A program made the translations under genes and the position numbers. A stretch of 63,409 bases of DNA, filler included, from Kipferlia bialata (taxonomy: Eukaryota): NCBI GenBank assembly GCA_003568945.1. It is 4 parts of 4 records of this genome, joined end to end, with 100 filler letters (N's around TTAATTAATTAA, not from the genome) between each part and the next. Parts side by side here need not be neighbours in the genome. Positions count along the whole stretch, not along the records: positions 22,245 to 44,296 come from BDIP01000307.1; 3 more parts are not named here. One strand, given 5' to 3'. The notes beneath the pieces are model-generated. The model saw only the letters and a program-made list of their open reading frames with translations, made no database searches and was not told the origin of the DNA. Of the stretch, positions 22,145 to 52,335 are shown in pieces. Positions within the stretch are counted from its first letter, which is position 1. The number at the start of each line of letters is the position of its first letter.

Positions 22145-22244
22145 NNNNNNNNNNNNNNNNNNNNNNNNNNNNNNNNNNNNNNNNNNNNTTAATTAATTAA
22201 NNNNNNNNNNNNNNNNNNNNNNNNNNNNNNNNNNNNNNNNNNNN
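22145..22244. other. Artificial contig-joining linker N44-TTAATTAATTAA-N44
   Basis: TTAATTAATTAA at 22189-22200 gives stops in all six frames and is flanked by 44 N on each side. Confidence 0.95.
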
Positions 22245-22396: not shown

Positions 22397-22908
22397 ATAC
22401 GTGGTGGTGTTCCCTTTCCTGGCCATTCTGCAGGGGTTCAGAGGTAATGTATCAGAGTTTTACATGCACTTGTAAAGCGTTAGCATGATCTCAATGTGTT
22501 GATAACAACTGGTTTCCATTCCTGGTCGTACTGCAAGAGCTCAGAGGTAAGTCATTGTGAATTATAGTAGCATCCATGTATATAAAGTGATTTGGTATTC
22601 CTCTTTGGGTATATAAAGAAATGCATATATAACCTTTCATACTATTTCTGCGTTATAGTATAGAGAATAAGATTATTGTCTCTAACATGCCAGGCACTCT
22701 CTTTGCCCACTTGAACCAGTGGATCAGAGGCCAGGACCTCCACTTCATGTGGATGCAGACGGTGAAGTCAGGTAGACATATGTATATATATGTATATATG
22801 TATAGAGAGAGAGAGATATATATATAGAGAGACAGAGAGAGAGAGATGGCCTCCACTTCATGTGGATGCAGACAGTGAACTCAGGTAAATACACTATATA
22901 TATATAAT

Positions 22909-22952
<44 letters not shown>

Positions 22953-24569
22953 ACCTTCATGTGGATGCAGACAGTGAAGTCAGGTATGGTGTGTATGGGG
23001 AGAGATTAGAACATTAATGTATGAACATTGTATGGTGTGTATGGGGAGAGATTAGAACATTTATGTATGAACATTGTTTGATAATGTATTAAGACTATTC
23101 AGATAGTGAGGTGAGGTGTATGTCTGTAGTATTTACTAGAAACTGACCCTAGGTCCCATGAATGCGTGTGGTCTCTTCTACCTCATTGCATGTCCCATAC
23201 TCCTGTGTCTGGGTATATACCACCACATACGTGTACACAGGCACTCTACCAAGCCAGGGGTGGAGGCAGTCGTACTCTCTCCCAGTGCTAAGCAGATAGC
23301 TGCATATGTACCTCTTGAGGAGAACAATGCTGTGCAGTATATGACTGGTGATGCGAGTTGCAAGACATCACTCGATTGTGGCAAGGCAGAGAGAGAGGCA
23401 GAGTCTCTCAACAGGGTGGCCATGATACTATCCGTGATTGGCATGCTGATATGTCTGCCAACAAAGAGTGTTCAGGTACATATTCCATGTATATTGATAG
23501 GGCATTTAGAGAATCTACCATTGGTTACGCATATATGTATATATGTATATATATACTTCCTAACACATGTGTGTCTGCCAACAAGGAGTGTTCAGGTATA
23601 CATGGCCTCCATAGTATATTGTGTAACTGTACATTCCATGAAGGCACTAATAGCTCAGATATATATCACTTCTCGCATTGGTGTGCCTGACATTGACTCC
23701 ATCAACATATCCATCAACATGTATACCTTATAGTCATATGTATTCTAACATTCCTTATGTACCAGATCTATATCTGCGACCGTCTTGGTGTGCCTGACAT
23801 TCACTCCATCAACTATACATTTNNNNNNNNNNNNNNNNNNNNNNNNNNNNNNNNNNNNNNNNNNNNNNNNNNNNNNNNNNNNNNNNNNNNNNNNNNNNNA
23901 TAGAATTCCTAATTGCAGAGCTATATCTGCGACCGTCTTGGTGTGCCTGACATTGACTCCATCAACAACCTGGCAGACAGCCTGGGGTCAGCAATTCGGT
24001 TAACGGGGTATGTGTCTTGTGTATGATTCCCATCATGAACATACAGCGTTTGAGTGTATACATCATGTATGCTATCGTATTGTATTCAATCACTATGCGA
24101 GTTTGTACTTCCCCATCAGGTGGGAGCTCCTAGGTGGTGACAATTCTGGGATGTTTCCCTTCCTCACTTCGGCCCTCATAGGTAGTATCGCCTTAGACAT
24201 AAATATTAAGACATTTGTATTAACTACCCAATATTTATACATACTATATATTATAGATGGATATTGATGTCAGGTCTTGCCTGGGGACTGAGACTCCGTG
24301 CCACTTCAACCATGTCTAGCATACTCTCTATGGTGGATGCCAGTCAACAGCTAGAGCTAGCAGATGACGTCCCTGTAGATACATCAGTTCCCCCCTCTAA
24401 GGTGTCTCTCTCCCTCCCTCTGTCTGCGGCTAGGGTAGAGTGGAGGTGGGGTCTCTTATACACTGGGTGGGGACTGGTTGTCTGGATCTGCCAGATGGTG
24501 GTGTATGGGGTCAAGGAGCAGATACAATCAGATATCGAGGCAGAAGGTAGTATCAAGATTCAAAAGTAG
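22397..24569 (+). CDS. Multi-exon polytopic membrane protein (3' part)
   Basis: Hydrophobic exons: ALFAHLNQWIRGQDLHFMWMQTVKS, GLFYLIACPILLCLGIY, RVAMILSVIGMLICL, GMFPFLTSALIG and WGLLYTGWGLVVWICQMVVYG...IQK*. Introns are GT-AG. Family not established. Confidence 0.55.
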
Positions 24570-27223: not shown

Positions 27224-30200
27224 CTAGTCTAGGAGACAACATCCTCCTCTGGCGGCCAATGTGTCCACCATAAGTGCATATGCATACATCCCCTCAGCCC
27301 CACTAGGGCATGATGTAACACCAGCCACTGGGTATGACCCAGACCCCTTAGTATTGCAATACGCCCCTATTGTCATGTATGTACCCCCAACACTGTCCCC
27401 CAACACCTTCTTCACCCCCTCCTGTCCTAAAAACCACTCTGCAGTAACTGTATCGTACACACATGTCTGAAAGTGCCCACTACCCAGTCCAACGAGATAG
27501 GGACCAACGGTTACCATATCAACACTGGTCATAGCGTCATCTGGTAAAGCTCCCTGACAGACCCACTCCCCTACGTGACAAGTATTATACTTGTCACACG
27601 TAAACGAGTAGAGCTCACCATCGAGCTCTAGGTAGACAGTATCTACAGTGGACGCAAGCACAGTCCAGTACTCCCAATACTCTGGTTGTTAGTTCAAAAG
27701 ATGCATCTAATACAGGAGACACAGTGTTGATTGACAACAGTTGTCAGTCCAGTACCCCCAGTACTCTGGTTGTCAGTTCAAAACACACACATATCTGAAA
27801 AGGGTACATAGTATTTGTCAAACGCGATCTGACCTGAGTCTTCTTTGAAAGAGGGTGACGGAAGCTGCGTCCACTCCTTAGTATAGGACGAGAATCTTAC
27901 AAAACGAGTATTTGGTCTGTATTCCTCAGTACTGCCCACTATGAGCAAGTAGAGGCATCCGTTTAGAGTGAAGCTGCAACAGCCTGTAAATGAGATGACG
28001 CTTCATATATACATATATAAGTAGGTTGTAAATATATAATGTTCACGTGTAGAGTGAAACTGCAACAGCATGTCAATTAGACTCTCTCGCTATCTCTCTC
28101 TCAATCTATGGAATGATGTCTGTGTGTGTATATATATATATTAGGTCATTATTTTACCCCATTAATTGAACACGCCATAACTAGTGTTGATATACATTAG
28201 ACTTATATATACAGTGATATATATAATAGAATGATGTATATAGTGTGCGTACCTGACTCGTATAGTGATCTGATCCAGTCAGGGGACAATGCTAGACCCG
28301 CTCCCTCTCTCTCCCCCTCCTCCCCAGTAATGTGCCATTCATCCATCACCTTCCACCTGGGTATCAGTATCAGTATGAATATCATAAGAATATCAGTATC
28401 AGCATCACTACTACTCCCCGCTGAGTATCAATATCAGCATGAATATCAGTATCGGTATCACAACTACTTCCACCTGTGTGTCTCTCTGTCGAACAGAAAC
28501 AAGTAGTATGCGCCACCTGCAGTCTTGCCAATGGCATATCCAGTGGAACCAATGAGCTGAGAGGTAAGACTGAGGGAGAGAGAGACAGAGAGAGAGAGAG
28601 AGACAGGAAGAGAAGTGTCCTCCAAGACCCGAAAAACACAATATGCAAACACACTATTCATAATTCTTTCAATATTTATATATATACACTACAGATTTGA
28701 TTTCGTCGAATAGGTGACCCTCTTCGTCAACAATGTCACGAAAAGTACATTATACATGTACACTATACATGTATATGTATCACTATTAGGGATACACATA
28801 TATAGATTTATGCATTATAGATAAGTATACCTCGAACAGGTGACCCTCTTCGTCAACAATGTCACCCCAGGGTAGAGGAACGCTCCGTAGGGCACACACA
28901 CTTTTAGAGACACTGCAACCACCCTGGGATAGGGAGGTACTGTGTATCTGTTTATGCATCAACACATTGATAAGCAAGAATTCATTCTCTCTCTCTCTCT
29001 CTATACATACCTATATATACAGTATATATAGAAATATATGCATATCAATACCTCATGGCAGTACTCTCCGGCAGAGTCACTAATTCTACGCCTCTCTCCC
29101 TAACTCTCTCTTTATCTCTCTCTCTCTATATGTATATATATAGTATATAGTATAGTATATATATATATACTTGCACGTACTATCCTCAACAGTACTCTCA
29201 GGCAGTGCCACACATTCTCTCTCTATATATCTTCATATGCATAGAGAGAGAGTATATATACATACCTCAACAGCAGTACTATCAGGCAGTGTCAGCACAT
29301 AGAACTCCTCGTTTCCTCCCTGGTCTGCTAGCAAGACCTGTTTGTTAGTCTATATATATAAGTATATGTATAGAGAGAGGGAGAGTAAATCTAGCAAGAC
29401 CTGTGTGAGTGGAGAGTCGGGAACAGCACATACAATAGGCGACACAAACCCAATTGTTTGCTAAAATAATAGGACTCTATCTGTATGAACATGTGGAAAG
29501 ACCCCTTACCTGTGGGAGAGTGAGACATATATGCAAATATATATATATACATATATAGAGACAGACAGATATACTTACCTCTGTGGGAGAGAGACTCATG
29601 ACACTCCGATAGTCTGCGTGCTCTAGCACTACCCTGGTCTCTCTGTCTCTCTCTCCCTCTCTCCTACTGGTCTCTGTCTCAGTCAGTGTGGGCACATGAT
29701 TAGCCCCTGTTAGTCAGTGTCTGTATATATGTATATGTGCAGCAGAATCCATGTGTTTATGTCTCTATGTATATATGTATGTATACGAGACTATATATAC
29801 CTATGGTGATTGGAGTGGGGTACCACTGGACCCTGAAGGGAAGGCAGAACTGGGTCAGAGGTATGAGTCTATAGAAACATTGCATACATATACCCGATAT
29901 CATAGCCATTATAGGAAGATAGAAATATGAGGTGCCTGAGAGAGAGAGGGTTGTATACATAGGGAGGGAGACAGACGCACCATGTATTGACAGGCCTTGG
30001 AGTGAGAGAGACACAGACACTCACCACACAAACACATACATACACATAAATACAGCATTATACTAATATAGTAAAGCAATACAGTAATGTAGAACACACC
30101 ATGTCCTGACAGGCCTTGGAGTGTGTGGACCAGTCATATTAACATGTATATAGAAGAGTTGTATATATATATACATATATATGCAGTGGGTGTGTGGGAG

Positions 30201-31041: not shown

Positions 31042-31521
31042 TCGAAAGAGAAGAAGACAGAAGCTGTATGAAGCAGAAACACAAAAGGGTCTGAGTAGTT
31101 CTGGTGACCCTTGTGTAACACAAGGGCCTTGTGTTTTGATACCGAGATACCCTTGGGGCTAGTTTCTGATGCTGGACACCACAATACCCACACATATTAA
31201 CGATTACCAATAGGTGGTTTATTCTGAGTTGTTGTGTATTGTTAAACAACGCTGACAACAAATGAAAAGTTACACTCACTGATCGACTCGATTGGTAGGT
31301 AACGAAGGATTTACCGAGGCTCACATGGTTGGGATGGCGCTTGCAGAGAGGTCATGTATGATGGTTGGTGACGTTGGAATGACCTCGCAGCCATCATATC
31401 GGAGTGTGTTGCAATGTGAATGTCTGAAGTAATGGCTGAGCCAATTATGGCTCAATCTCGTCCAGGAAGGGCTCGTAAAGTGTCCATCAGCGAAAAGATC
31501 CCATTGTCTAGCACGCTGTAT

Positions 31522-34500
31522 TTACAAATCTCTCTTGTATGTTGTCTTAACACTGACACTGCTGGTCGGAGCGTGCTGCCAAACCACAACCAGAGGGTAC
31601 TCTGCCCAATCGCTCCTCTTACAGTAGAATGAAATGTCCTCTCCCTTCCCCTTTGTGGTGTTCACAGTGACATCGGAAATGCACTCTCGCCTCCTAATCT
31701 GAGTGCTGTCACCGCACCGGATGACTAATATTGAAAGACTAGATGTAGAGCACATGAACGAGACATTTACAAGCTTCACGCACACGTTCTGTTTTCCACC
31801 ACCGAAGCCGCCGGGACAAAACGTTATGAACACCTCGGTCCTTTCCCTTGGAAGCACTGGAGGTACATGTAGGATACTCTCCCAGACTCCCTTCCAGTCA
31901 GAACGCTGCTCACTGGAAGGTTTCTGAGGCTGTTCACCAATATATGCATATTCTCTCACGGATAGGTAAACAAGCTGATACCCCTCACTGCCTTCGTCCA
32001 GAACCAAGGAGTCAAACACACGAGCCCTCAGTTTGGTATCGGTCAGTGTGCACCCCCTGAGATCTGCTCCCCGAATATCCACCCTAGTTAGATCAAAGCC
32101 TCTCAGATCAAGCCCCTTCAAGTCTATCCCCTTGGCACTCTTTATCCTCTCCGAAAGCACAACTTCGACATGATGTCCATCCTCTGTGGTAAGTGCGCTC
32201 TCTCTCACGAACATGGTTGATCTGATTCCAGTGGCGTGACGCAGAATGGTGCCGTCGAGGGTAGCGTCTGACAGACAACAATCGGTCAGGACTGCCCGGC
32301 TGAGGTCAAGACCGGAGAGGTCTGCGCCAGTTAAATCTACTTCTGTCAGGTTGACACCTTGGACAAAATACGCCTCATGTAGGTGGGTGCACTTCAGCCC
32401 TGTGCCTGACAGGTTGGCGTTTCTCAAGTCCAGACCTTTGAAGCTAACGCCCTTGAGGTTCAGTCCATGAAGGTTAATACCTTTAACACTAGTTGCCTTG
32501 CAAAGCATATCCCCTCTTAGTCCTGTGACACCTAGTAGACTGGCATGGGAGAGGTCAAGACCGGATAGATCCCACCCAGAAATGTCTAGGCCTGAGAGAT
32601 CCACTCCTGCACAACTTGCAGCAGTCCTTAGGACCCTTGGTGTGACACCCGTTGCGACTGAGAGCTCACAACCACTCAATGTGCTACCGTCAAGGTCAGC
32701 AAAGGTGAGGTTTAGTCCGTTCACATCTAGAGTGGTCAGAGCTCTCTTCCTAAGGTCTGGACCTCCGAATGATACGCCAATTAGGGTGGCAGAAAATACA
32801 TCAGTGTCAGTGAAACTGCAGTCTTCGAAGCTGCAGTCAATGAAGTGGGCGCCGAACACCTTGGCCTCGTCTAGCTGACATCTGATGAAGGTACATCTCT
32901 GGAAAGTGGCACCACTAAGATCCACAGAGTTCATGTGGCACTCTGTGAAAGTACACTGCTTTGCCATGACACCACGGGAGGACGTGATGGTAGCACCCAC
33001 AAACTGCCACTGTACTAGGCATCTGTTCTCAAGAGCAGGTCCTACATCTATGCATCCTACACAGACGTGTGTCGCATATCCAGTCTGCAGAAGATGGTAG
33101 AGATGGTCCGTGGATGTGACCTCTATCAACAAAGCCACAGTACTTGTTGTTGAGTCATCATCGGTCTCTCCCACTGTATTCCACACACCCTCCTTGACCT
33201 CGAAACACTGAGTCAGTGTTACACTGACCCTCAGCCGGTGCAAGTCCATTCAGGATTGAGTGGCCTACATACTCTCCCATGCCTGACCCATGGGCAGAAG
33301 GCACCAAGTCAACGTCACCAACTCTCTCCTCAGGGAGTACTCGGTAGCGCCTGTAACCAGTGTGTGTCATGAGCACAAGGGAGCGGCCATCCGGGTGGGC
33401 GAGTACTGGTCCACACAGTGCATATGGTATCAGGGATGCTGTGGATGTGTCGAGGTCAACACAGAGTAGCTGCCCGTGCATGGTAGTGTATATGTGTTGT
33501 CCAATACATACAGCAGGTGTGTCAAGAGCTGGGATGGGGACATCCTGATCCTCACCTCTCTTCTTGGGAGCTACAAGTACACCCCACTTGGCATCCGCTA
33601 CCTGCCACTCATAGACACCCATTATGGTGAGGGAGTCGTCGAGGGAGACAGCGACTACTCTTCCATCCATAGGTGCTAGAAGGGTGGGAGGAAGATGTGC
33701 GCCCTCGATGTCGAGAGACTCCGGTAGAGTGGGGATCTGAGAGCCGGAGACGTCAGACACCGTAGCCAGCTGCAGTGCAAATCTGTAATCCCTTAGATCT
33801 ACAGATATCAGACTGTCTTCTCTTGCATAGAGACAGTATCCGTGGAGGGCACAGGTGTCAAGGATGTCCCCATCCAGGTCTCCTGATGTGTTCACTACCA
33901 CACACGTAGAGTCATACGTGGCTAAACACAGCATGTGAACCAGGGGGTCATAGAAGACAGGTCCGATTGGTGTGCATATCTGAGGGAGGGTCACGGCTGA
34001 TCTGGACACTGTCCCTGAGGAGAGGCATACGTTGGTGTACTCTCCACCAATACCCACAACAGCAGTGTCGAGAGTTCCAGACAGCCTGAGTGTATGATAC
34101 ACTCTATCACTCACAGGTACCACTAGAGGAGTAGAAAGTGTGCACGACAGGTTGACACAGATACCCTCACTGGGATCTACAGAGAGACGCAGTAGGTGAG
34201 AGAGGCGTCCGTCAGTGACTGGGGCAACCAGAAGAGATCCGTCGCTCTGAGGCCCAAGGTGTATTGTCTGACTCTCGTCCAGCAACACACTAGCTTCAGG
34301 ATCTAGCCTGACCGGAACTTCACTCCAACAGAACTGAGCATCACCAACAGGTGCACTGTCTTGTGAGGTGCTTGCTCTGATGCCATATGCAGTCATACTG
34401 TCTCCTTCTGTCACCAGGTGGAGCACACCACCATGAGTGCACACATGGTGGCCTGTGTCAGGTACACCAGCCACAGGGGAGAACTGTACCACCTGTGTGA

Positions 34501-34818
34501 GGGGGCATCATTTGATGGCTATATCCTAATAATAGTGCTCACCTTGTTCTTGACTGCCGTGACCAGTCTAGTGTGCTCGGCGGTCAGGCAGTTGATGATC
34601 CCGGACTTGATGTCACTAATAACAGAGGCTGGGTCTAGCAACACTCCAGCAAGGGACAGAACAGTCTCCATCTTTGGGAACTGAGGTGAGAGACAGCAAC
34701 CCTGCTCCAGTGCAGTCTCTCTTTCTCTCTCAGCTGGGGTACGTGGATCGTCAACCCTGGAGTCAGAGACTATACTGTCAAACTCTACAGTTTTGGGTTC
34801 ACTTGACTTCATGAACAA
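31522..34818 (-). CDS. Pentapeptide-repeat protein with an N-terminal beta-rich region (three ORFs joined by short introns)
   Basis: ORF 31522-33249 has many A(D/N)LxG-type pentapeptides (VDLSGATF, ANLSGTGL, ADLSGLDLS, ADLRGCTL). A 50-nt intron at 34542-34493 (GTGAGC..cacacag) joins the upstream ORFs in frame. A probable 61-nt intron at 33268-33208 (GTAGGC..ctgactcag) joins the 444-aa and 575-aa ORFs in phase 0. Confidence 0.8.
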
Positions 34819-35147
34819 ACATGGGAGCCATCTCTACTGCTGCTGCAGACTGAACCAAGATCAATGACCATAGACTTGAGGGATTGAAAGTTTCAATTTG
34901 AAACTATACCCAGACGCTACGTACCACTGCGCAATCAGGTTGTATGGACCGAGACGGCTGCCCAGAGCCCTCTGTATCATGACAAGTGGGGTGGAGAGGG
35001 GGATGGGGGCAAGAGTGTCAGAGGACAGCAGCTGTAGACGCTGGGAGGAGGCAGGGTATGTTTTCTCTAGCTCTTGATCTGTGGGGTTAGAGAGTTCGCT
35101 TCTAGAGATTACTACAAAGAACGTTTGTGAGTGGTTGGTGTTAGACT

Positions 35148-35600
35148 CTATGGCCCATTGAGTCTATGACTCATAGACTCTATCATAGAGTCTCTATGAG
35201 TAGTCGCTGAACAGTGTATACAGTATATAGTGTTCATACTCTTCCCACCTTCATCATAACTGTGATCACTCTCATCCTCAGAGCCTGACTCCTCAGTTTC
35301 GGAACCAGGATCACTCTCATCACCGCATGTGGCAGTAGTCTCAACCACACCAGCCAGGACACTAAGGGGTGTAGATGGGTCATAGTCCTGAGGGACAGCA
35401 CACTCAAGCAGGGTGGTGCCACCCATGTTGGTCACACAGATGGTGAAGGGAACAACAGGCATTCCTCTACTAATTACGGGCAAGCCAGGAGTTTCCAATG
35501 GAGGGGACCAGTGATACAAGGGTGAAGAGAAGGAGAGGTGGTGGTTCTGATGTATACATATATACTGTAGCAATACTGTTGACCCATACACCTGGGCTCA
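35148..35600 (-). CDS. Small hypothetical protein with an acidic stretch
   Basis: The ORF includes MPVVPFTICVTNMGGTTLLEC...ESDPGSETEESGSEDESD and is followed by a GTGGGA donor-like site. Exon structure is uncertain. Confidence 0.3.
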
Positions 35601-35893
35601 AGGCAAGGGTTACTATATACTCATCAGTATACAGTATACAATTGTCTATGACCAACTGGTCCAGTTACTGGATCATACACGGACACTATGCCTAAACACA
35701 TCATTTATAGTATCACGGTTGCATCAGAGCCGGTTTTACATTTGCGCCCATTCCTTTCAGAGGCTTGGGGCATCGGTATCTCTCTCTCTCTCTCTGTAAT
35801 CTGAATATATGCAATAGAGCTCTCTCTCTCTCTCTCCACTGCACTATTAGAGATAGGACATCCTCCTCTCGGTGGTATGGAGAAGACTAGTCC

Positions 35894-35936
<43 letters not shown>

Positions 35937-35951
35937 GAAGTTCTAGATGCT

Positions 35952-38900
35952 CTAGACGCTCTCCTCAGCTGGGACGGCAGCGTCCATGTCACCCTCGCCA
36001 GAGGCCCTCAGGAAGACCTGGGGGGTCAGTGCCAACACATAACTATACATATATATGTATACTGCACGTAGTATACAGTACTATATACACAGGTATTATA
36101 CCTCAAACAGGGATGTGGATGCCAGACCCATGTCCCTGATGGCCAGTCTCTCAGAGTTCATCTGGAGGTACCTGTAATTAGACTTGTCTGTGCAGGTATC
36201 ATTGTAACTGTAGGGATATTCCAACGTGTAATTACTATTAGTATCAGCATGTGTCTAATTGTGGTCACAGTATATACCTGTAGATGGTGGCAATGTCTCC
36301 TGTGGCTGTTGGGATCCTGAACACATAGTTGCCAAAGACACGCTCGGCCTCAGCGGCAGGGCAGACCTGAAGGTGAGTGTGTGATTATATGTAGAGAGAA
36401 GTCTAAATAACTGCGGACCACACAATAACCGTACCTCCTTCACGCCCTGCACGACTGGGTCCTCTGGCAGAGGCAGGGTGCAGTTCTCGGCAATGAGGGA
36501 CAGGGTGAGACCGGTGGAGTATCTGGCCTAGGGTTAGAGACATATATTCACAGAGATCCACTACAATATACATATTGAGCAGGAGAGAGAGACTAGGGTG
36601 AGACCGGTGGAGTATCTGGCCTAGGGTTAGAGAGTATCTATACATAAATATGTGACACATAGAGAGGGATATAACTTCTCAAGAGATAGAGAGAGAGAGA
36701 GAGAGATACCTTCAGGTCCACGGCAGAGCCCTCGCAGCGGATCTTTCCGTTGACAACAATCAAGATACGGGTAGAGAGAGCCTCGGCCTCCTCCATCTAC
36801 AGGGTCAGATACAGATGTCATGTGTAACAATAATATATACATATATATATATAGAGAGAGAGTATTGGTGAATGGGGTGGACAGAGCCTCGGCCTCCTCC
36901 ATCTACAGGGTTAGATAGATACAGAGAGATCCGCAAAGTATAGTGGCATAGTATAATACTGATATATGCAAGAGAGAGAGAGTGGACACGTACACTGTGG
37001 GTGGTCAGGAGCACAATCTTGTCCTTCTGGGCCTTCCTGCGGGGTTAGAAGGTTTTCAATACATCACATACATATATATCAATATGGATTAATATATACA
37101 CACATGTATACATACTGTACCTGATGTTCCAGAGGCCTTGTACCTTTCAATATATCTATCTATACACTCTATCTCATTCTATCTTTCTATCACTGTATAC
37201 ACACACACATATATATATATACATACTGTACCTGATGATGTTCCAGAGGCCTCTCCTGGACTGGGGGTCAAGGCCGGTGGTGGGCTGGGCGTGAGAGGGA
37301 GGGGGGAGAGAGAGAGGCAGAGGTTGAACCAACACGATATAGAGCGTTGAGAATGGATTCATATTTGTATACCTCTTCGAGGAATATCATGTCGAATGTT
37401 GTTCACTCAGTAGCATAAATATGTATATATATACTATATAAATATGTATATATATACTATATGAGTACGTTACCTCGTCTAGGAATATCATGTCTGCGCC
37501 TCCGATCAGGGCAATGGCCACACTGATATATATATATAAATATATATATTTGTATATATAGCACATACAATGTAATATACTATCAGTATTGATACAATAT
37601 ATGTACTAACCTCGTCTAGGAATATCATGTCTGCGCCTCCGATCAGGGCAATGGCCACACTCAGTCTCCTCTTCATGCCACCGGAGAAGGTACTGGAGTG
37701 AGATACATGTATATGAATCTAAATCATATTAACAAGACATGTATTATATACTAATGTCTACATACCGCACTGCGTTCTTGGCCACGTTGGCCAGCTGGAC
37801 ATATCCATACAAATAGGATAGTGTAGTATATATAAGATATATATATATAACATACCGCACTGCGTTCTTGGCCACGTTGGCCAGCTGCACATGCTCCAGC
37901 ATGGTGTCACACTGCTCAGACAGGGCAGCGCCAGAGAGACCCTTGAGGTTAGGTATAGGGAGAGAGAGAGAGAGAAGGTATGGTGTCACACTCCACAGAG
38001 AGTCAGACCCAGAGAGGCCCTAGAGGGTAAGAGGGATATCCTTATCTATCTATATATACAGAGAGAGAGACATAGATATATCCATACAATACCTTGATAG
38101 CACCGTAGAACATGAGGTGGCTCCTGGCATCGAGGTCGAGCCACAGGGCATCGTCCTGGGGGCACACGCCGTATCTAGAGGTAAGGAGAGGTATATAGAT
38201 ATTCATAGGGAGATAGAGATGGATTGAGAGATAGAGAGAGAGAGAGAGAGTGACTGGACATCGTCCTGGGGGCACACGCCATACCTATAAATGAGAGAGA
38301 GAGAGAGAGATTGAGAGAAAGAGAGTGAGAGGAAGAGAGAGCTCTTGGGAAATAGTTTGTGGTACAGATTCATCCTCGATCCACCCACTGTATATCCCCA
38401 TACCTGTGGCTGAGCTTAGCGCCTATGCACACATACATACACATATATATACATACACACATATATATATATATATGCGTATATATCTATATATAAGCGT
38501 ATATATCTATATACATAAGTATATATATATGAAGTGATGTATCTATATCCCTGTACCTGTGGCTGAGCTTTGCGATGGAGGCCATGCCGGGCTTGGCCTG
38601 ATATAAGGGGCTAGAGAGAGAGAGAGAGATCACCCACGAGAGTACATGCACAATAAGTATTCGGTCCAAGTATGAGCACTAAGTCATACACTATTGTGTA
38701 CACGTCTATACCTGTGTCATGACTGTCTGTCCGAGGGCAGTGACTAATCATCCATCCACATACCATAGTAATGTTTACAATGGTTACATATATCCACTAC
38801 ATATATATATATATATGTATATATATATGCCCACACCTGTGTCATGACTGTCTGTCCGAGGGCAGTGACGTCACCACAGGCCTGGGGTGAGGGACATCAA

Positions 38901-39778
38901 CACGCAAGGACATACACATAGTCCAAATGTAGAGACAGAGAGAGAGAGAGCGAGAGTACCTTGACGCGTCCAAGCAGGGTACGGATGGTGGTCGTCTTGC
39001 CAGAGCCGTTGGGGCCTGGGGTCAGTGATATGAATGTCTCCACTGTTTCAATTACCAATATAGTGTTATCCTGTAAACAACGCAATGCATGTGAATACCG
39101 CTACACATACTCACCTAGGACTCCGAGGCACTCTCCCATGTGTCCTGTGACCTCTCTACCCCCCCCCTCTCTCTCTCAATAGTATCACCACCATATCTCT
39201 ATCATATATATATATATTTCACCATACCTAGCACTCCGAGGCACTCTCCCCTGTGTCCTGTGAGAGAGACACCACGGACAGCATGGATGGGGGCACCGCC
39301 TGGGGTGAATATACACTACACATAGTAGAAATGGAGAGAGAGTGACACCGCTATCTCACTATTCAAGCATGTACCTGGGTTGGGGTATGTGACGTGGAGG
39401 TTGTCACCATGATACATATACTATAAGGATATACTACATACACTATGATATAGGATATGTGTAGGTGTATAATACCTGGGTTGGGGTATGTGACGTGGAG
39501 GTTGTCCATCATGATACGTACCGTTATTGTGCATGTTACTATACACTATATGGGATATGTGTAGCTGTAATATACCTGGGTTCGGGTATGTGACGTGGAG
39601 GTTGTCCACCTTGAGGAGGGTGTCCCCAGAGTGCTGGTTGATGATGGCAGAGGCAGAGGCATCAGTGGTGAGAGATATCTGGAGTTAGTAAAGAGAGAGA
39701 GAGAGAGGGAGAGAGAGAGCTGGCAGATGATGGCAGAGCCAGAGGCATCAGTGGTGAGGGATATCTGCTCATTAGAAG

Positions 39779-39813
<35 letters not shown>

Positions 39814-39872
39814 TAATGGTTGATGATGGCAGAGCCAGAGGCATCGGTGGTGAGGGAGATCTGTATTTTAGA

Positions 39873-39923
<51 letters not shown>

Positions 39924-40810
39924 TGTTGATGATGGCAGAGCCAGAGACATCAGTGGTGAGGGAGATCTGTATTAGAAGGGGGGGGGGGAGAGAGAGAGAG
40001 AGTGAAAGAGAGAGAGAGAGAAATGGTTGATGATGGCAGAGCCAGACATGTCGGTAGTAAGGGAGATCTAAGGGTAAGAGAGAGAGAGAGTCCAGTATGA
40101 ATATACAGTATACATATTTACATACCTCTCCGCTCTCCTCTGCCACAGGCACCCTCTCCACCACTGCAGTGCTGGCCTTCTGGCCCTTCAGCTTGGCCCT
40201 GGGGGGTCAGAGAACTATCATACTCATATGCAACACATAACATATTGACAGCATTATTGGTGTAAGGAGTTTACCTGATCTCGAGCATCTTTGATAGTGC
40301 CACTGCTATCCACGCCTCGATGTGCTTGTCAAGGATGGCACCCAGGACCATGCACACAATGCCAACGGCAACAAGAATGGCAATGATCTGGGGTGAGTAC
40401 ATGGTAAATATATATGTGTAAATTGAATGGTACTCCAAGATGGTAAATATGAATTCAAGTGAGAACACTTGAACAAACTTAGAGTAATACAACCATAATG
40501 ATGTATCATGTGATACTATACAATATACACATATACATGAATATAAATACCTGGAAGAAGTAGTCCTCTGCGTCTGCCAGGTGGAACTCGTCTTCATCAG
40601 CCACAATATATAAATGTCACATATATATATTATAGTATATATATAGTATATGGTAGAGTAATAGTGTAGTTATATGATTACACTACTGTACCTGGAAGAA
40701 GTAGTCCTCAGCGTCTGCCAGGTGGAACTCGTCCTCATCAGCCATGATGAACAGGAGCTGCATCACAGCCATGGAAGGGAGGGCGGTGGAGACGTTGACC
40801 TGGGGTAAGG

Positions 40811-40854
<44 letters not shown>

Positions 40855-40903
40855 TGCATCACAGCCATAGAGGGGAGAGCGGTGGAGACATTGACCTTGA
40901 GTA

Positions 40904-40950
<47 letters not shown>

Positions 40951-41221
40951 AAGAAAATTGTATATGTAGTATCTATATATTGCTCTCTCACCTGCTTGGG
41001 GGAGTATATGAATGATGCAATGGTGGCACATGTATATTGTATACATACATCACTAGGAGTAAGTGTATATACACAGTGTGTATATATATGTTAAGAAATA
41101 TACCTGCTTGGGGGAGTATATGAATGATGCGATGGTGGCACCCTCGTTAAGGAGAAGGACAAGGACCCAGCCAACAACGGTGGCAAGTCTCTCTGGGGGT
41201 AAGAAAGGGGGTGGGGGGAGA

Positions 41222-41269
<48 letters not shown>

Positions 41270-41721
41270 CAGTCAACCACAGTGGCAAGTCTCTCTGGGA
41301 GTAAGTAACAATTGAATAGTATGAAGAAATAATACTACACTCGTATAGATATCGGATGATATTAAGAAGCTACTTACAGATAAACGTGAATATATACTAA
41401 CCTGTGGGGAGGAGAGGTGCGATGAGGAAGGAGAATCCAACACAATATGTGACAGAAAGGGAGAGAGAAGGAGATAGGCTAAGACACAGCATATATACTT
41501 GTATACATACTAACCTGTGGGAAGGAGTGGTGCGATGAGGAAGGAGAACCCGACGCTGGTGAATGCCCATGCCACAAAGACAATGACGAGGGCAGAGAGA
41601 TCAGAGTCAGCCACAACGTGGATGTCAAAGAGGAAGGCAAAGACAACCTGAGATAAGGGGCTAGAGGGGAGAGAGAGAGGATGTCAAAGAGGAAGGCAAA
41701 GACAACCTGGGATAAGGGGCT

Positions 41722-41755
<34 letters not shown>

Positions 41756-43879
41756 GTCAGATTCAGATCAAGGTGGGTGTCAACGAGGAAGGCAAAGAGG
41801 CCAATAACAATAGTATACAACATGAAACTGCTACTCACCATAATGGTAAAGGACACCAGTGAGAACAGGAAGAAGAACAGGAACATGACTGTGAAGTAGA
41901 CGGGGCGGCCCAGGCCAGAGACCTCCATCTGCTCTCTGATGCGGTGCTAGGGTGAGAAGGGAGGAATATACATGTATACAGAGAGAGAGAGAGGGTTTAT
42001 GAATGAAGGAGAGAGACCTCCATCTGCTAGGGTCTAGGGTCACAGATCCAAATAAATGTATGCGTGTGAATATATAGATTAAGAGAGAAAGAGAGAGAGA
42101 ATGAGTGTTCATACCTGTCTATCCGAGACCAGCTTGACCAGGAAGTAGGGCAGCAGGAGGTGGAGGCAGAAGCCTGGGGGGTAAGTAAATATATATATAT
42201 ATATGTATATATTCAATGAATAATGTATATATCTCGATATACATATATATATGAATGTATGGCAGCAGGAGGTGGAGGCAGAAGCCTAGAGGGTAAGAGA
42301 GATACGCAGTATGTATATATTCAAAGAATAATGTATGTGGTGAGTGGTGTATGGCAGCAGGAGGTGGAGGCAGAAGCCAGGGGGTGAGACATATATATAT
42401 CCGTATATGTCTACAGTATCATCGTATACTACGTACCCAGGACCTCAATAGCACCGAGGTCCATGATGGACATGACAGTATACATAACACCACTGTCTAT
42501 GACAATATACAAGAAGATACTGTACTATAGTACACTACACTATGAATATATATATATACATACTCACCTAGCACCTCAATGGCCCCCAGGTCCATGATGG
42601 ACATGACACCACACTATTCATATATACCTACTCTTACTATCATGATCATACATATAATATACGCACCCAGAACCTCAATAGCACCCAGGTCCATGATGGA
42701 CATGACACTATACATATACATATATATATGCCTACTATAACATATGTCTATAACTATATACACATAAACACATATTATATATATATATATACGTATATAC
42801 ACTGACCTAGCACCTCGATGGCCCCCAGGTCCATGATGGACATGACAGTGTCAGTGTCCTCAGAAGGGAAGGACTGCAGTTAGAACCTACATGTACNNNN
42901 NNNNNNNNNNNNNNNNNNNNNNNNNNNNNNNNNNNNNNNNNNNNNNNNNNNNNNNTATACTAAGAGACAGAGAGAGAGAGAGAGAGAGAGATGACAGTGT
43001 CAGTGTCCTCGGAGGGGAAGGACTGCAGTTAGACGAGAGTATAGACTATTACATGGGAACCGGGAGAGACAAAGAGAGATCGAGACATGACAGTGTCCTC
43101 GGAGGCGAACCTTATATTGTAAGAGAGAGTGATATGCAGTATGACTCAATATATACCTTTCTGCTTCTGGTGATGGCTTCCACACCACTGTCCTCAAAGT
43201 ATGCATTGTGCATCAGATCCATGCCTATGGGTTAACCCGAGATATATATGAACACACTAATACACATAATGTAGGGGGTATACCCCTCTATACCTGCTGT
43301 GACGTATGCACTGGGCAGCTTGGCCAAAAGTATCAGTATGACTATATAGCAAAGAAAATAGTATAGTGTATTCTACAATATGATATGGTATGAATATAGA
43401 GTGTATATATTGTGTATATATATACATACATACCTGCTGTGACGTATGCACTGGGCAGCTTGGCCATGCCGAAGGCATCCGTGTCGGAGTGGTTGAACCT
43501 GGTATCAGACATGTGAAGCTACTATAATGGATGGTAATATACATAAGTATAAATATATATTGACACTAATTAATATGATGTATTGTTATGACACTATATA
43601 CAGAAACCACTCACATGAGAGCGTACTCATATATGTATGTATCACACTATACATATACTTACTCACATGAGTGTGTACTCCAGGGCAGCAGCGGTGGGGA
43701 CCCACATAATATATATATAACTATAAACGACAATACTAGTGGTATATATACACTTAATACATATACTAACTCACATGAGTGTGTACTCCAGGGCAGCTGC
43801 GGTGGGGACAGAGTCTGCGCCATAGCCAATGATGTTCAGAGGGGTGTCATACCACACATCCATGATCTGAAATAAGGGG

Positions 43880-43924
<45 letters not shown>

Positions 43925-44000
43925 GTACGTGGTCATCGATGGCGTCCATGTCAGTGAAGGAGTAGTCCACAGTGACGGCGTCATAGGTGCCAATGTCACC
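35952..44000 (-). CDS. ABC transporter subfamily A (one TMD and one NBD visible), many small exons; 5' end at or near the scaffold end
   Basis: Walker A GPNGSGKTT (exon 38960-39015); GVCPQDDALW; signature and Walker B SGGMKRRLSVAIALIGGADMIFLDE (37611-37692); PTTGLDPQSRRGLWNII; H-loop LLTTHSMEEAEAL; ABCA tail STSLFE|VFLR...EESV* (stop 35952-35954). TM exons read MEVSGLGRPVYFTVMFLFFF and LLLPYFLVKLVSDR. Confidence 0.92.
39372..43110 (-). repeat. Intronic arrays of partial exon-edge copies with their own splice sites (ABCA gene)
   Basis: Examples: 4 extra acceptor+ISLTTDxSGSAIIN copies (39725-40070), 2 DNLHVTYPNP+donor copies (39372-39507) and 3 VMSIMDLGAIEVL+donor copies (42437-42706). Confidence 0.9.
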
Positions 44001-44296
44001 TGGGGTTACTCATTCACCACATATACATACATAGGGAGTATGCTGAGGGAGAAACAGAAAGTATATACCTGAGACATCCTGGATCTCTGGCACTAGGTCT
44101 GCCAGGGTGGATGTGGCATATGCAGAGACAGGGGCAGGCATGAGGGAGTTGGGGGCAAGGAGGAGGGAGGTCACGGCCCAGGACACAGGAACGGCCTTTA
44201 ATCAGGAGAGTGTCATTGATGGGTAACGAAGAGAGCGAGGGGGAGGGGGGGGGGGGGGGGACGACCCATCCTAGCACTGGCACTAGACCAATACAT

Positions 44297-44396
44297 NNNN
44301 NNNNNNNNNNNNNNNNNNNNNNNNNNNNNNNNNNNNNNNNTTAATTAATTAANNNNNNNNNNNNNNNNNNNNNNNNNNNNNNNNNNNNNNNNNNNN
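44297..44396. other. Artificial contig-joining linker
   Basis: N44-TTAATTAATTAA (44341-44352)-N44. Confidence 0.95.
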
Positions 44397-46581: not shown

Positions 46582-46696
46582 TACCTCAAGGCAGAAGGGC
46601 TGAGCCCGTCCTCCAGGCATGCCCTGAGCTGTCGGCACAGGAGGCAGAGGTATATATATACTATATATATATATGTGTATATAATTGTACATACTG

Positions 46697-46729
<33 letters not shown>

Positions 46730-48508: not shown

Positions 48509-51500
48509 CTAAATCTCTCCCTGTCTCTCTCTAACGGCTTTGATGATCGCCTTAGCCATCTTGTGCCCCCCTGTTACACTAGGCTCCACTCTCTGCACAT
48601 AGTCAGTAGTGTCACTGCCATCCATAATCTAGAGTCAGCAGTCATAGCATAGTGAGTATTTATACTCATAGCTGCTATGAGTCATAGCATATATAGTCAT
48701 CCAGAGTCAGTGCTGTCACTGCCATCAAGGACCTGGGATGAGATTACGACTAATTAACCTATATATATACTACTAAGAATAATAGTTGAGGCACATAGTC
48801 AGACGGGTCACTGCCATCAAGGACCTAGTGTTAGGAACACCTGTATAGTGAGTATATTGTGTCACTGCCATCAAGCCTCGAGTGTCAGTATCATCCATAT
48901 ATATATTATATAGTATACATATACAATACAGAAATCTGGTTGATATCTTTACATATTAGTATACCATATTCGGTATACCAGAATATCATATCGGTAGGCA
49001 CACCTCATACAGTGGACATGTCACCACATTAGTCCCAACGATAGATATCCGAGTCACAGCCATCTCGTATATCTTTCGAATGACTAGCTGCAGTCTGTAT
49101 GGGTCACTGTCATATCTGGAGTTAGGCAATTTGGCGGCCTAATGGTATATATAGAATATACATACTATATACTATACTGCCATCTAAACCGTATCATACC
49201 TGCTGTTAGCATAATACTGTAAAACTATAATACAAAAGTGTGTCCTGGAAGACGATTATCTGTGTTTGTGCTACACCTTATGTATAGTACAAGAAATGAA
49301 GTATATCTATTGTATGACTATTTGGAGTCTAGAGGGCTCTGTGTCGTACCTAGAATCAGAGATGACAGGGTGACATACAATGGCATTTGATCACTAATCA
49401 AATTTGATTCGCAGTCCACTGAATAGCCACATTGTATTCTCTCAGTTACTCCACACCAGGTACAGTATATCTCAGTAGCAGCATTAGATCTGCATTCTAT
49501 GAAACATAGTATGTTACATACTCCATTCTCTTCAGTACCCAATCTGCCCAGCTGCCCCCAACAGTCACATCGGGGTAGCTCTATAAATATACATAGTGAT
49601 TACAGGTAGAAGACCAATCTTGATAGTGTAAGTGACTCACCCCATGCGCCTTAGCACCCAGTCTGCCCAGCTACCCCCCACTGTCACATCGGGGTAGTGT
49701 ATCATGCACACAACCACCGTCCTGGGCACATGCAATGACACTAGAGTCTCTATATAATCTTGGACTCTGAGAGTAAGTATTAATACACGGCTAATACACA
49801 ATAGAATAATTCTATTAGGATATTTGCTGGACAATAGAATATATATAGCAGTACAACCACTGTATTTGGCACATGTACAGACTCTAGAATCTCAAAGCAC
49901 TCTTGCACCCTGTCTATGAGTAATTCAATAGATGGTAGACATATAGTGTATCTGAATTACAGATACAATGTAAGTCAATGGTATGTAGAGTTTACTTACT
50001 TATCTTTGAATAGTGTATTGGACACTCATTCAATATATGTATACCTGTCTCTAAATAGGGTGACAAAGTGCTGAAGCCCAACTGCTGTGCCATCTTCTAT
50101 AGAGGCCAGAGAGGCTACCGAGAGCAAACAGCCCATATGTGCTACTGTTAGATCCATTTGCGTCACTAAAGTGCTGTGATGTCGTAAGATATCCCATTCA
50201 TGATGTTTCACTCACCTATATGTGATAGCGTTACATAACATGATCTACTATATGAGAATCAACCACCTATTGTTGAGAGTGTTGGGTGAAGTGCAATGTC
50301 GTTGCTACCCACTGACACCACTAGGGTGTCATCAGAGGTGATATGGTCTCGGATGAATCTAATTAGTTAGAGCAATGTCTCCGCTGCACACTGCTGTTGA
50401 AGTGAATAGATATTTAGGTAAAGAGTAATAAATAGTAAATAGTATACCATACTCTTACCTGTCCTGTGAGAAGAGTGTCCCTCGGATGTAAAAATACAAT
50501 ACACATGGGAAATCATTGAGTCCCTACACTGTATCTAATACTCCTGGACAGATACCTATCTTGTGGCAGTAGTACCCCTCCCCTCCGCTGTCTAAGAGTT
50601 GACTCCTCCACTGCTGTGTTGATACACGTGACACCTGGAATAAGGATAGGTGAAAGAGATCAGTTGCTGTTCTTTTTCTGGATACTATATATAGATTTCT
50701 AAATTAGAGACTCTCTAACTCCTCCACTGTTGTGTTGACACACGTGACACCTGGCATAAGTAGATATGATTTGATACAGGTGGCACCTGGTATACGTAGA
50801 TAGGTAATATAATATATTAAATATATCAATCATGGTTCTGACTCTAGATAGTAGGAAGATGCCACTATTTGTTGACTCCTCCACTGCTGTGTTGATACAG
50901 GTGACACCTGGTGTAACTGGAAGAAGTCACTAGGGAGATACTATTGACACGTTGAATAGTATATAATATCTTCTACTGCAGTGTTGATACACGTGACACC
51001 TGGCATAGGTAGATATGAACAATATGACTGGCCGTTACTACTGATGTGTTCACTATACCTAGTTCTACATTAGTGTCACTTAGTCCACGCGGAGCTGCGG
51101 TCGAAAAGTATAATTGTCTGATCATTACAGTACCTTGAATGTTCATCCAATGACACATATCTGGTACTTACATCGGAAAAGAGAGTAGATATAATCTACA
51201 TCTCTCACGGCATAATATCCATACTATGAATACAGTGTTCTATATGTAGTATTACCCTCTTTGTTCATCCAGTAACAGACATCTGGCACAGACAGATGGG
51301 GGAGAGAAAACAATTGATTGCTCTGCCAATACTTGTACCCCAGTAAGTATGGTATAATGATACACTATAATAATATACCTTCAATGTTCATCCAGTAACA
51401 GACATCTGGCACAGACAGTGGGGGAGTATAATCATAAGTACTAACGTATATATACTATGTATACTATATATCACATAGTAATACGTTACCCTCTCTGTTC

Positions 51501-52335
51501 ATCCAGTAGCACACGTCTGGCACAGACAGTAGTGGAGAGACACCACAGACAGGTCATACAGTAGTATTCTACCATACTGCACTATATATACTATAGTCTT
51601 ACCCTCTTTGTTCATCCAGTGACAGACATCCGGTACAGACAGTGGGGGAGAGAGTATACCCTTGTACTGATCAGCGGCGGGTACCCTTGGTGTGTCAAGC
51701 AGCCAGTGCTTGTTGTCTGGGATCAAATGTGTTGTTCTAAACTAGTGAACAGTATATCCTCTATACTCTACCAAGACAGAATAGATGGGGTTACACGCTG
51801 TGTCGCAAGTTGCGACTCGCAACAGAGACAGCAATTTCGTAATACCCGTATTGTGCAGTGAACATGATACCTAAGCTGCTGTCCCCTGCCAGAAACCATA
51901 TGGGCTCTCCTAGGTCTCGCAAGCATGGAACAACCTGGGACAGATGCTCAACCCTAGCATAAGGAGAGAGTGATGAAGCAGGCTTATATATATATGAATA
52001 TCTATGGGTTCTATTATAGAACTTCTATATAGGAGTGTAATGTATGCTAACAACTATCACAACCGATATTCTTCGACGTAAACTACATGTGTGAGTTATA
52101 TGTGAGAGTTACAGTCCGAAGACAGTGTGTGTCCAGTAATTCTGGACCAGAATCGACAGAGAAACACAAAACCTGTGGCGAATGTACTCTAGGTATTAAT
52201 TAGTAGGGCCTAGTGTAGAAGCATTGCAAACATTAATGATACGGTCAAAAGACTTTCATGACTGTGCAACACTATACCTGTGGCCAATGTACTGCAGATA
52301 ATACTCGTCAGAGGGCACACCCATATGCTGAAGGA
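48509..52335 (-). CDS. SGNH/GDSL hydrolase-like protein (multi-exon)
   Basis: The spliced translation gives WFLAGDSSL|DNKHW (block I GDS), GVTCINTAVEESTL, FIRDHITSDDTLVVSVGSNDIAL (block III GxND), VVVCMIHYPD and DYVQRVEPSVTGGHKMAKAII...GEI* (stop 48509-48511). The start codon is not fixed. Confidence 0.75.

What the first reader, a model, noticed from the sequence alone, without database searches (positions are those of the whole stretch)
35952..44000. Consistent polarity of decoy splice junctions across most ABCA introns
Seen: copies of acceptor plus exon start lie upstream of the full exon, and copies of exon end plus donor lie downstream. Examples: exon 39574-39678 has four upstream and two downstream copies; similar cases occur at 37376-37525, 37765-37800, 38257-38286, 39115-39150, 41401-41440 and 42260-42380. 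Inference: to splice correctly the cell must skip up to four intact branch-point+AG sites and use the first donor and the last acceptor. That suggests exon definition, or abundant mis-splicing, in a lineage whose parasitic relatives are intron-poor. It is also a route to intron lengthening.
Basis: partly seen in the sequence, partly recalled or inferred. Interest (0 to 1): 0.75.

Follow-up and report, generated by a model that had tools for sequence, protein, structure and literature searches.

The report
Splice-junction mirages carrying foreign codons
Most introns of this protist transporter gene hold short copies of the neighbouring exon edge with its splice site, and the copies differ from the real exon mainly at silent codon positions, so they likely came from other working versions of the gene by recombination and would record hidden genetic exchange in a free-living relative of Giardia.

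Summary
The ABCA gene (27 exons, minus strand; matching public protein labelled Kipferlia bialata) has 35 partial exon copies in 20 of 26 introns, all beside their own exon and all in the stated polarity. Polarity itself is unsurprising: any head-to-tail duplication across a junction produces it. Such structures are known from lancelets as 'mirages'. RNA contigs use the true site in both decoy-bearing introns seen; mis-splicing rates and exon definition were not tested. Copies explain the long introns (151-633 nt versus 62-106 nt).

Copies differ from the true exon mostly at synonymous sites (ABCA 31 of 41 distinct changes, pN/pS 0.11; seven genes 75 of 118), keep GT/AG (54 of 61) as different, equally strong splice-site variants, and lose similarity abruptly just inside the intron. 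Neutral decay of local duplicates does not predict this. Best reading (0.5): units were captured or refreshed from diverged working alleles by out-of-register recombination. No second allele was available to test it; the DNA laid shows no heterozygosity, and two small genes lack the bias.

The parts
35952..43999 (-). ABCA half-transporter gene, 27 exons modelled here (43999-43929, 43866-43775, 43498-43434, 43224-43157, 42873-42807, 42173-42115, 41946-41839, 41647-41515, 41192-41104, 40799-40692, 40387-40275, 40198-40126, 39678-39576, 39299-39228, 39015-38960, 38881-38837, 38597-38557, 38174-38093, 37941-37856, 37692-37611, 37284-37232, 37036-36994, 36796-36710, 36527-36435, 36366-36278, 36171-36102, 36017-35952); a further upstream exon ends at 44069
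   Evidence: one open frame; public protein P0001 with PF00005/PF12698; RNA joins for introns 22, 24, 25, 26 and a loose end for 21
43615..43701 (-). intron 2: donor-type copy 43701-43667 and 14-nt remnant 43628-43615
43294..43326 (-). intron 3: donor-type copy
42988..43097 (-). intron 4: acceptor-type copy 43022-42988 and internal piece 43097-43084
42257..42707 (-). intron 5: three donor-type copies (ends 42667, 42568, 42437; 12 of 12 differences synonymous) then two acceptor-type copies (starts 42377 without AG, 42285)
42012..42028 (-). intron 6: internal piece of the 5' part of the next exon
41679..41798 (-). intron 7: degenerate copy 41798-41750 without AG and acceptor-type copy 41706-41679
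41270..41441 (-). intron 8: donor-type copy 41441-41402 then acceptor-type copy 41294-41270
40855..41029 (-). intron 9: donor-type copy 41029-40992 then acceptor-type copy 40895-40855
40551..40603 (-). intron 10: donor-type copy, 53 nt, 2 of 2 differences synonymous
39719..40067 (-). intron 12: four acceptor-type copies (starts 40067, 39966, 39860, 39764), 42-46 nt of exon each
39375..39508 (-). intron 13: two donor-type copies (ends 39476, 39375)
39115..39150 (-). intron 14: donor-type copy
38712..38744 (-). intron 16: donor-type copy
38259..38421 (-). intron 17: donor-type copy 38421-38404 then acceptor-type copy 38284-38259
37980..38019 (-). intron 18: acceptor-type copy; in frame (78 nt), taken as the acceptor by the public model P0001
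37766..37802 (-). intron 19: donor-type copy
37474..37524 (-). intron 20: first donor-type copy, 51 nt identical to the exon end
37373..37393 (-). intron 20: second, shorter donor-type copy
37121..37138 (-). intron 21: donor-type copy with a 3-nt deletion; skipped in the RNA contig
36875..36902 (-). intron 22: acceptor-type copy; skipped in the RNA contig (join 36796-36994)
36595..36620 (-). intron 23: acceptor-type copy; one DNA contig spans exon start, spacer and copy at single-copy depth
44490..47974 (+). second gene with 13 copies (22 of 32 distinct differences synonymous)
   Evidence: frame from my own model, no RNA check
50718..51540 (-). gene with 7 copies in two arrays (13 of 26 distinct differences synonymous)
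57059..58194 (-). gene with 3 acceptor-type copies
61414..62023 (-). gene with 4 copies (5 of 5 distinct differences synonymous), 23-31 nt long although the exons are 760 and 787 nt
22850..23813 (+). gene with 4 copies, no synonymous bias (1 of 5)
28705..29207 (-). gene with 2 anchored copies, no synonymous bias (2 of 7)

Best explanation
These are mirage-type tandem duplications of splice junctions (about 33 nt of exon edge plus an intron-sized piece) whose units were likely captured or refreshed from diverged, working alleles of the same gene by out-of-register recombination, and which the spliceosome skips in the two introns seen. Shown: the structure, its polarity, single-copy depth in DNA, synonymous bias, intact but different splice signals, a step in identity at the junction, shared far breakpoints within arrays, and use of true sites in two introns. 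Inferred: alleles whose microsatellite-rich introns are too diverged to pair can recombine only through exons; a break near an exon edge is copied from a homologue through the junction into its intron, and when the remaining exon homology is short (under about 55 nt) the new strand is end-joined instead of annealed, leaving both versions in tandem; later unequal exchange between copy and true exon edge adds units that keep the founding breakpoint. Polarity follows from geometry; whole-exon copies would be purged. Inferred for splicing: the shortest complete exon wins (first donor, last acceptor), as with truncated duplicates in mammals.
For: Synonymous share of distinct differences: ABCA 31 of 41, all seven genes 75 of 118 against 0.27-0.34 expected if only the copy drifts and 0.43-0.51 if the true exon also drifts silently (p 2e-5 to 1e-3 for ABCA, 7e-6 to 1e-4 overall); 26 of 31 exon edges with differences exceed 0.45; no GC-to-AT direction (27 versus 29). 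Copy-versus-copy differences 44 of 73 synonymous (p 0.01 against 0.46). GT/AG kept in 54 of 61 although the donor 6-mer is identical in only 7 of 31 and the acceptor 11-mer in 3 of 30; decoy donors score 5.5 versus 5.6 for true and 3.8 for other intronic GT. Identity is about 0.9 on the exon side and 0.33-0.63 from intron +3 on. 9 of 13 arrays share the far breakpoint within 5 nt (mean range 6.0 versus 12.3 permuted, 0 of 20000). Exon parts are 17-54 nt even for 760-787 nt exons. No close paralog: apart from P0001 itself, listed hits are 27-46% identical. Passages of PMC8516963 state that metamonads lack Ku-dependent end joining and that fornicates lost Rad51A and keep two Dmc1; the abstract of PMC6719624 links Dmc1 to stabilising mismatched base triplets.
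Against: No second allele or isolate was found (62 pattern matches, none confirmed), so the donor alleles are unseen. The DNA run shows no other letters in 7.5 kb, so this isolate gives no sign of diverged haplotypes. Intron flanks are more diverged (donor +3..+6 57% versus 42% for unrelated donors; flanks 62% versus 57%) than synonymous sites (about 20%), which plain allelic divergence explains only with codon constraint (GC3 0.74) or extra exon-only conversion. Two small genes show no bias (1 of 5, 2 of 7) and one is even (13 of 26); outside ABCA the excess over the strictest null is modest (44 of 77, p 0.02). Non-ABCA frames rest on my own model. Differences within an array are not fully independent. 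The protein searches score only a word-limited candidate set.
Confidence: 0.5

Rival explanations
1. Local duplication with back-up selection: copies arise locally, and deletion between the two direct repeats (single-strand annealing after a break in a fragile intron) makes the copy the real exon edge often enough that coding and GT/AG changes in copies are selected against.
For: Needs no second allele; fits the homozygous DNA, retained GT/AG and low pN; lancelet mirages show length instability (PMC3087553, section 16).
Against: Second-order selection needs deletion rates near ten times the mutation rate and a very large population to allow 20% silent divergence at the same time (inference); it does not explain why intron flanks diverge more than silent sites.
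Confidence: 0.15
2. Classical neutral minisatellite turnover: slippage or sister exchange duplicates the junction, copies then decay freely; exon parts look conserved only through occasional conversion from the true exon.
For: Shared breakpoints in arrays; 6 of 57 within-intron segment pairs are clearly homologous; two genes without bias; simplest known model.
Against: Predicts at most 0.43-0.51 synonymous share; observed 0.76 in ABCA and 0.64 overall. Predicts GT/AG decay with the flank: 54 of 61 intact has p 5e-6 at 21% divergence. Conversion from the true exon erases silent and replacement changes alike.
Confidence: 0.12
3. The donor was a near-identical paralog or the second subgenome of an old hybrid, since lost or unassembled; the mechanism is the same ectopic capture but says nothing about present-day exchange.
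For: Explains all sequence signatures and the lack of heterozygosity; an expressed ABCA paralog appears as a partly laid RNA contig.
Against: That paralog's visible 30 letters differ at most codons and two residues (by eye), far more than the copies (pN 0.02); no close protein; up to four distinct variants per array and seven unrelated genes would need many lost duplicates.
Confidence: 0.12
4. The copies are used productively today (alternative sites, nested or recursive splicing, or programmed DNA rearrangement), so selection acts on them directly.
For: Intact, strong splice signals; 4 of 32 ABCA decoys leave the frame open and the public model uses one; donor copies always precede acceptor copies, forming nested GT-AG units in 4 introns.
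Against: 28 of 32 give a stop or frameshift; exon-end copies have no acceptor; RNA contigs use true sites in 2 of 2; most introns carry only one type.
Confidence: 0.07
5. Assembly artefact: haplotypes or strains stitched in tandem.
For: Would give silent differences and unrelated introns; the window has gaps; most arrays were not checked against reads.
Against: 93% of 836 sampled 31-letter words of 35900-44200 are held by a DNA run; its contigs span three copies with no other letters at depth 449-461 versus 454 for single-copy DNA; stitched bubbles would put acceptor copies before donor copies, the reverse of what is seen. The run may be the window's own source, so this shows read support, not independent replication.
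Confidence: 0.04

Closest known systems
'Mirages' of lancelets (Adh3, globins BflGb6/9, TnC, PGBD5; PMC3087553 section 16 read, PMC3902484 one passage read; the original 2002 Adh paper was not held and is known here only through them)
   Same: Tandem duplications spanning exon-intron boundaries, at both boundaries, units of similar size, many with AG/GT, normal splicing apparently undisturbed.
   Different: Here in a unicellular fornicate, in 20 of 26 introns of one gene and seven genes of one window; lancelet globin units are 81-100% identical with concerted evolution, whereas here only the exon part is conserved, differences are mainly synonymous and the intron part is near background. The passages read call the generating mechanism unclear and report no codon test.
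Human F7 intron 7 VNTR and oriented scanning of 5' splice sites (PMC1557585, abstract)
   Same: Repeat spanning an exon-intron boundary yields functional pseudo-donors that stay silent; the most upstream donor is used.
   Different: Single locus, identical 37-bp units, donors only; gives no rule for choosing the last acceptor.
Repair-mediated duplication by synthesis-dependent strand annealing (PMC2671141, abstract)
   Same: Short, closely linked duplications from break repair, including exons and splice sites.
   Different: Templates are nearby cis sequence and copies start identical; here the template is inferred to be a diverged allele.
Intron gain by tandem duplication of AG|GT (Rogers model; PMC3265369, passages)
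   Same: Intragenic tandem duplication creates extra splice signals and leaves exon-like sequence in introns.
   Different: No new intron is made; existing introns are lengthened and the original positions are kept.

Membership tests
Mirages (lancelet) | Head-to-tail repeats that span an exon-intron boundary | tested here: met
   34 adjacent hits, none anti-polar; 61 junction-anchored copies in seven genes
Mirages (lancelet) | Both 5' and 3' boundaries affected; many units keep AG/GT | tested here: met
   31 donor-type, 30 acceptor-type; GT 28 of 31, AG 26 of 30
Mirages (lancelet) | Regular splicing is not disturbed | tested here: inconclusive
   true sites used in 2 of 2 introns seen, but contigs drop rare forms and only 29900-37400 was laid
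Mirages (lancelet) | Minisatellite-like similarity along the whole unit (81-100% in BflGb6), concerted evolution | tested here: not met
   intron side 0.33-0.63 identity from +3 on; only 6 of 57 within-intron segment pairs above the 99th percentile of unrelated pairs; hence filed as a variant, not a plain member
Mirages (lancelet) | Copy-number differences between haplotypes, somatic instability | not testable with these tools
   one DNA run, contigs only, no second isolate
Duplicated mutually exclusive exons | Whole exon copied with acceptor and donor | tested here: not met
   copies cover 17-54 nt at one edge only
Rogers-type intron gain | Duplicated coding AG|GT used as a new donor-acceptor pair | tested here: not met
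   copies lie within existing introns and the open frame uses the original sites
Introner or transposon insertion | The same inserted sequence at unrelated sites | tested here: not met
   within ABCA only: non-adjacent pairs score at most 26; the rest of the genome was not available
Repair-mediated duplication (SDSA with end joining) | Breakpoint hallmarks such as microhomology to a known template | tested here: inconclusive
   far junctions listed; template unseen; one case (58194) suggests 2-3 nt shared with the intron start, by eye
Exon definition | Choice of a site depends on its partner across the exon | not testable with these tools
   needs reporter or mutant data

The most novel reading that the evidence does not exclude
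Kipferlia introns are archives of other alleles: each mirage unit is a fragment of a different working haplotype, left by mismatch-tolerant, Dmc1-only recombination that can pair only exons. One clonal genome would then reveal cryptic sex and very high allelic diversity in a free-living fornicate, give a general mechanism for mirages in hyperdiverse species, and show that failed inter-allele repair is a main driver of intron length.
Probability: 0.45. Interest if true: 0.78.

Novelty: new variant of a known kind. Interest (0 to 1): 0.56.

Why it matters
Mirages were described in lancelets with an unclear origin. A simple codon test on the copies separates neutral local duplication from capture of working alleles, and can be run on any genome that has them. 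If capture holds, a single genome gives evidence on genetic exchange in free-living metamonads, and the thousands of natural, intact decoy sites become a test set for how a reduced spliceosome (87 of 174 proteins, PMC6679479 abstract passage) picks the first donor and last acceptor. Practically, the copies mislead gene prediction: the public ABCA model carries a 26-residue insert from one of them.

Tried and rejected
No whole genome was held, so no genome-wide tally was possible. The repeat finder was swamped by microsatellites. No RNA holder was listed as such; X2 is a guessed RNA run whose contigs show spliced joins. No join was listed for decoy-bearing intron 23 (rows at repeats were dropped), so it is untested. 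Pfam scans of five single exons found nothing (too short). Metagenome scan with P0001 found no relative. The first automated scan gave 86 hits: I dropped 21 hits to a poly-C run and 4 hits among Glu-rich repetitive exons (these 25 include all 22 hits of opposite polarity) and re-anchored 7 after a one-base coordinate error; with them left in, the overall share was 88 of 169 synonymous (p 0.002 to 0.11). Two of six training ORFs of my exon finder were out of frame, which weakens non-ABCA models. Rejected: polarity as evidence of selection or exon definition (geometry suffices); whole-exon duplication followed by truncation (would give opposite-polarity remnants, 0 of 34); C-to-T or GC-to-AT mutation bias as cause of the silent excess; spliced-cDNA templates (copies carry intron and splice sites). 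Earlier scan findings: none returned.
Full report
Setting. The region holds a minus-strand, intron-rich gene with branch points fused to the acceptor. A hand-built model of 27 exons (43999 to 35952) gives one open frame of 703 residues with Walker A and ABC signature motifs. A search with one exon returned a single protein, P0001, 100% identical over the 44 residues, labelled by its sources 'ABC transporter A, ABCA [Kipferlia bialata]' with PF00005 and PF12698. P0001 equals my model plus 25 N-terminal residues and a 26-residue insert (754 = 25 + 703 + 26). Passages of PMC5874029 (12 of 17 places shown; supplements not read) describe this free-living fornicate as having 124,912 introns against 8 and 3 in Giardia and Spironucleus, and did not mention exon copies in introns.

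Observation. Every exon was aligned to every intron. 34 hits lay in the adjacent intron (scores 28-102); 650 non-adjacent pairs reached at most 26. With one remnant added by eye there are 35 copies in 20 of 26 introns. Exon starts are copied upstream, exon ends downstream, with no exception among the 34. In the four introns with both kinds, donor copies come first. The six copy-free introns are 62-106 nt, the others 151-633 nt (rho 0.89 with copy number); total intron length is 5934 nt against about 2000 if all were of copy-free size. A junction-anchored scan of 108 exons in eight modelled genes gave 86 hits; after dropping 25 low-complexity hits (which held all 22 opposite-polarity hits) and re-anchoring 7, 61 copies remained in seven genes, 31 donor-type downstream and 30 acceptor-type upstream. 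The exons of three of these genes were chosen because they had copies. The gene at 750-9120 (42 predicted exons) had none.

Real DNA, and skipped. A DNA run holds 93% of 836 sampled words of 35900-44200. Reads were laid on 29900-37400 only. Contigs span three ABCA copies with no other letters at depth 449-461, the same as single-copy DNA (454), and no substitution was listed anywhere in the 7.5 kb; this run may be the window's own source. Contigs of a guessed RNA run join 36994 to 36796, skipping the decoy acceptor at 36902, and continue from 37036 into the true exon at 37232 rather than the decoy donor at 37121. Contigs cannot give mis-splicing rates. Of 32 ABCA decoys tested in silico, 28 would give a stop or frameshift and 4 leave the frame open.

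Polarity is geometry. A head-to-tail duplication across an acceptor gives partial copy then full exon; across a donor, full exon then partial copy (inference from the arrangement). So polarity shows that the events are tandem and that whole-exon copies do not persist, not how sites are chosen. The structure has a name: PMC3087553 (section 16 read in full) describes 'mirages', tandem duplications of exon-intron boundaries in lancelet Adh3 and globin genes, with AG/GT in many units, undisturbed splicing and an unclear mechanism; PMC3902484 (one passage) adds TnC and PGBD5. PMC1557585 (abstract) shows identical pseudo-donors in human F7 staying silent behind the first donor. Preference for the outer site when the inner duplicate has a truncated exon is recalled from Reed and Maniatis 1986, not from a call. 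Searches for mirages listed 6 and 3 papers, of which the two read concern lancelets and the others were seen as listings only; searches on Kipferlia and on duplicated junctions listed nothing on this pattern in a protist or on a codon signature. Subscription papers are mostly not searched.

The unexpected signature. In ABCA, 28 anchored copies differ from the true exon at 43 synonymous and 14 replacement positions (pS 0.19, pN 0.02, ratio 0.11; 31 of 41 distinct changes silent); over all 61 copies 101 versus 51 (75 of 118 distinct; ratio 0.16). Given the observed mutation spectrum the expected silent share is 0.27-0.34 if the copy drifts alone (0 of 200000 simulations reach the observed count) and 0.43-0.51 if the true exon also fixes silent changes (ABCA p 2e-5 to 1e-3; other genes 44 of 77, p 0.007 to 0.02). 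Against: two small genes show 1 of 5 and 2 of 7, a third 13 of 26. Copies differ from one another silently too (44 of 73; p 0.01 against 0.46), though such pairs are not independent. Splice dinucleotides survive in 54 of 61 copies while the signals around them are different variants: donor 6-mer identical in 7 of 31, acceptor 11-mer in 3 of 30, branch-point motif present in 22 of 30 against 46 of 54 training acceptors; decoy donors score like true ones (5.5 versus 5.6; other intronic GT 3.8). Identity falls in a step at the junction, from about 0.9 in the exon part to 0.33-0.63 from intron +3 on. This is the profile of a comparison between two working versions of a gene, not of a dead duplicate.

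Mechanism. The source must be about 96-98% identical in protein; no such paralog appears (others 27-46%, word-limited candidate sets), and the paralog transcript glimpsed looks far more diverged. The simplest source is other alleles. Exon parts are 17-54 nt (median 33) even in 760-787 nt exons, and 9 of 13 arrays share their far breakpoint within 5 nt, which points to one founding junction per array and later unequal exchange. I infer that alleles with unalignable introns pair only through exons; repair copied from a homologue runs through the junction into foreign intron, fails to anneal when the remaining exon homology is short, and is end-joined; later out-of-register exchange adds units from further alleles. 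Passages of PMC8516963 report no Ku-dependent end joining in metamonads and loss of Rad51A with two Dmc1 paralogs in fornicates; the abstract of PMC6719624 ties Dmc1 to stabilising mismatched triplets. These make the model plausible but do not test it. Weak points: no second allele was found, this isolate shows no heterozygosity where laid, and flanks are more diverged than silent sites, which needs codon constraint (GC3 0.74) or exon-only conversion in addition. Confidence 0.5; rivals are back-up selection through pop-out deletion (0.15), neutral turnover (0.12), lost paralogs or subgenome (0.12), productive use (0.07) and artefact (0.04).

Verdict. Real feature; works like lancelet mirages but fails their whole-unit similarity, so a new variant of a known kind. 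The codon signature is the part worth following. Interest 0.56.

Noticed in passing
window 37942-38019 and P0001: The public ABCA model uses the decoy acceptor at 38019 and so carries a 26-residue insert, partly translated CT microsatellite, inside the ATPase domain; likely a prediction error, not checked against RNA.
   Followed up: partly
window 750-9120 (minus): An intron-rich gene (41 predicted introns, 2% microsatellite) has no copies at all, whereas ABCA introns are 16% microsatellite with 20 of 26 affected; copy-rich and copy-free genes coexist.
   Followed up: partly
window 58116-58331 (minus): Intron with three acceptors: a near copy of the original intron, then a wholly different 52-nt GT-AG piece directly behind its AG, then the exon-start copy joined to the intron start through 2-3 shared bases; looks like two intron versions in series.
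   Followed up: partly
window 29975-30345 (minus): A 37-nt exon is followed by three copies covering up to 36 of its bases but without an acceptor; the three share changes against the true exon. Frame not settled, left out of the counts.
   Followed up: no
window 22800-22960, 46690-47005, 39150-39185: Several donor-type copies are preceded by GA runs on the sense strand, the reverse of the usual CT runs of these introns; possible fold-back synthesis at the new junction.
   Followed up: no
lay, around 36311-36339 and 36764-36797: An RNA contig of depth 442 matches only short conserved parts: a more diverged ABCA paralog is transcribed.
   Followed up: partly
window 31522-33249 (minus): Intronless 575-aa ORF with pentapeptide-like repeats, covered in part by low-depth RNA contigs.
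   Followed up: no
window 54256-55698 (plus) and 15793-19863 (minus): A long exon with protein-kinase-like motifs (Crinkler-like layout, recalled) and a 1356-aa intronless surface-protein-like ORF.
   Followed up: no
window 22145-22244, 44297-44396, 58472-58571: N-spacer-N linkers: the window joins four separate contigs, so neighbouring genes across them are not neighbours.
   Followed up: yes
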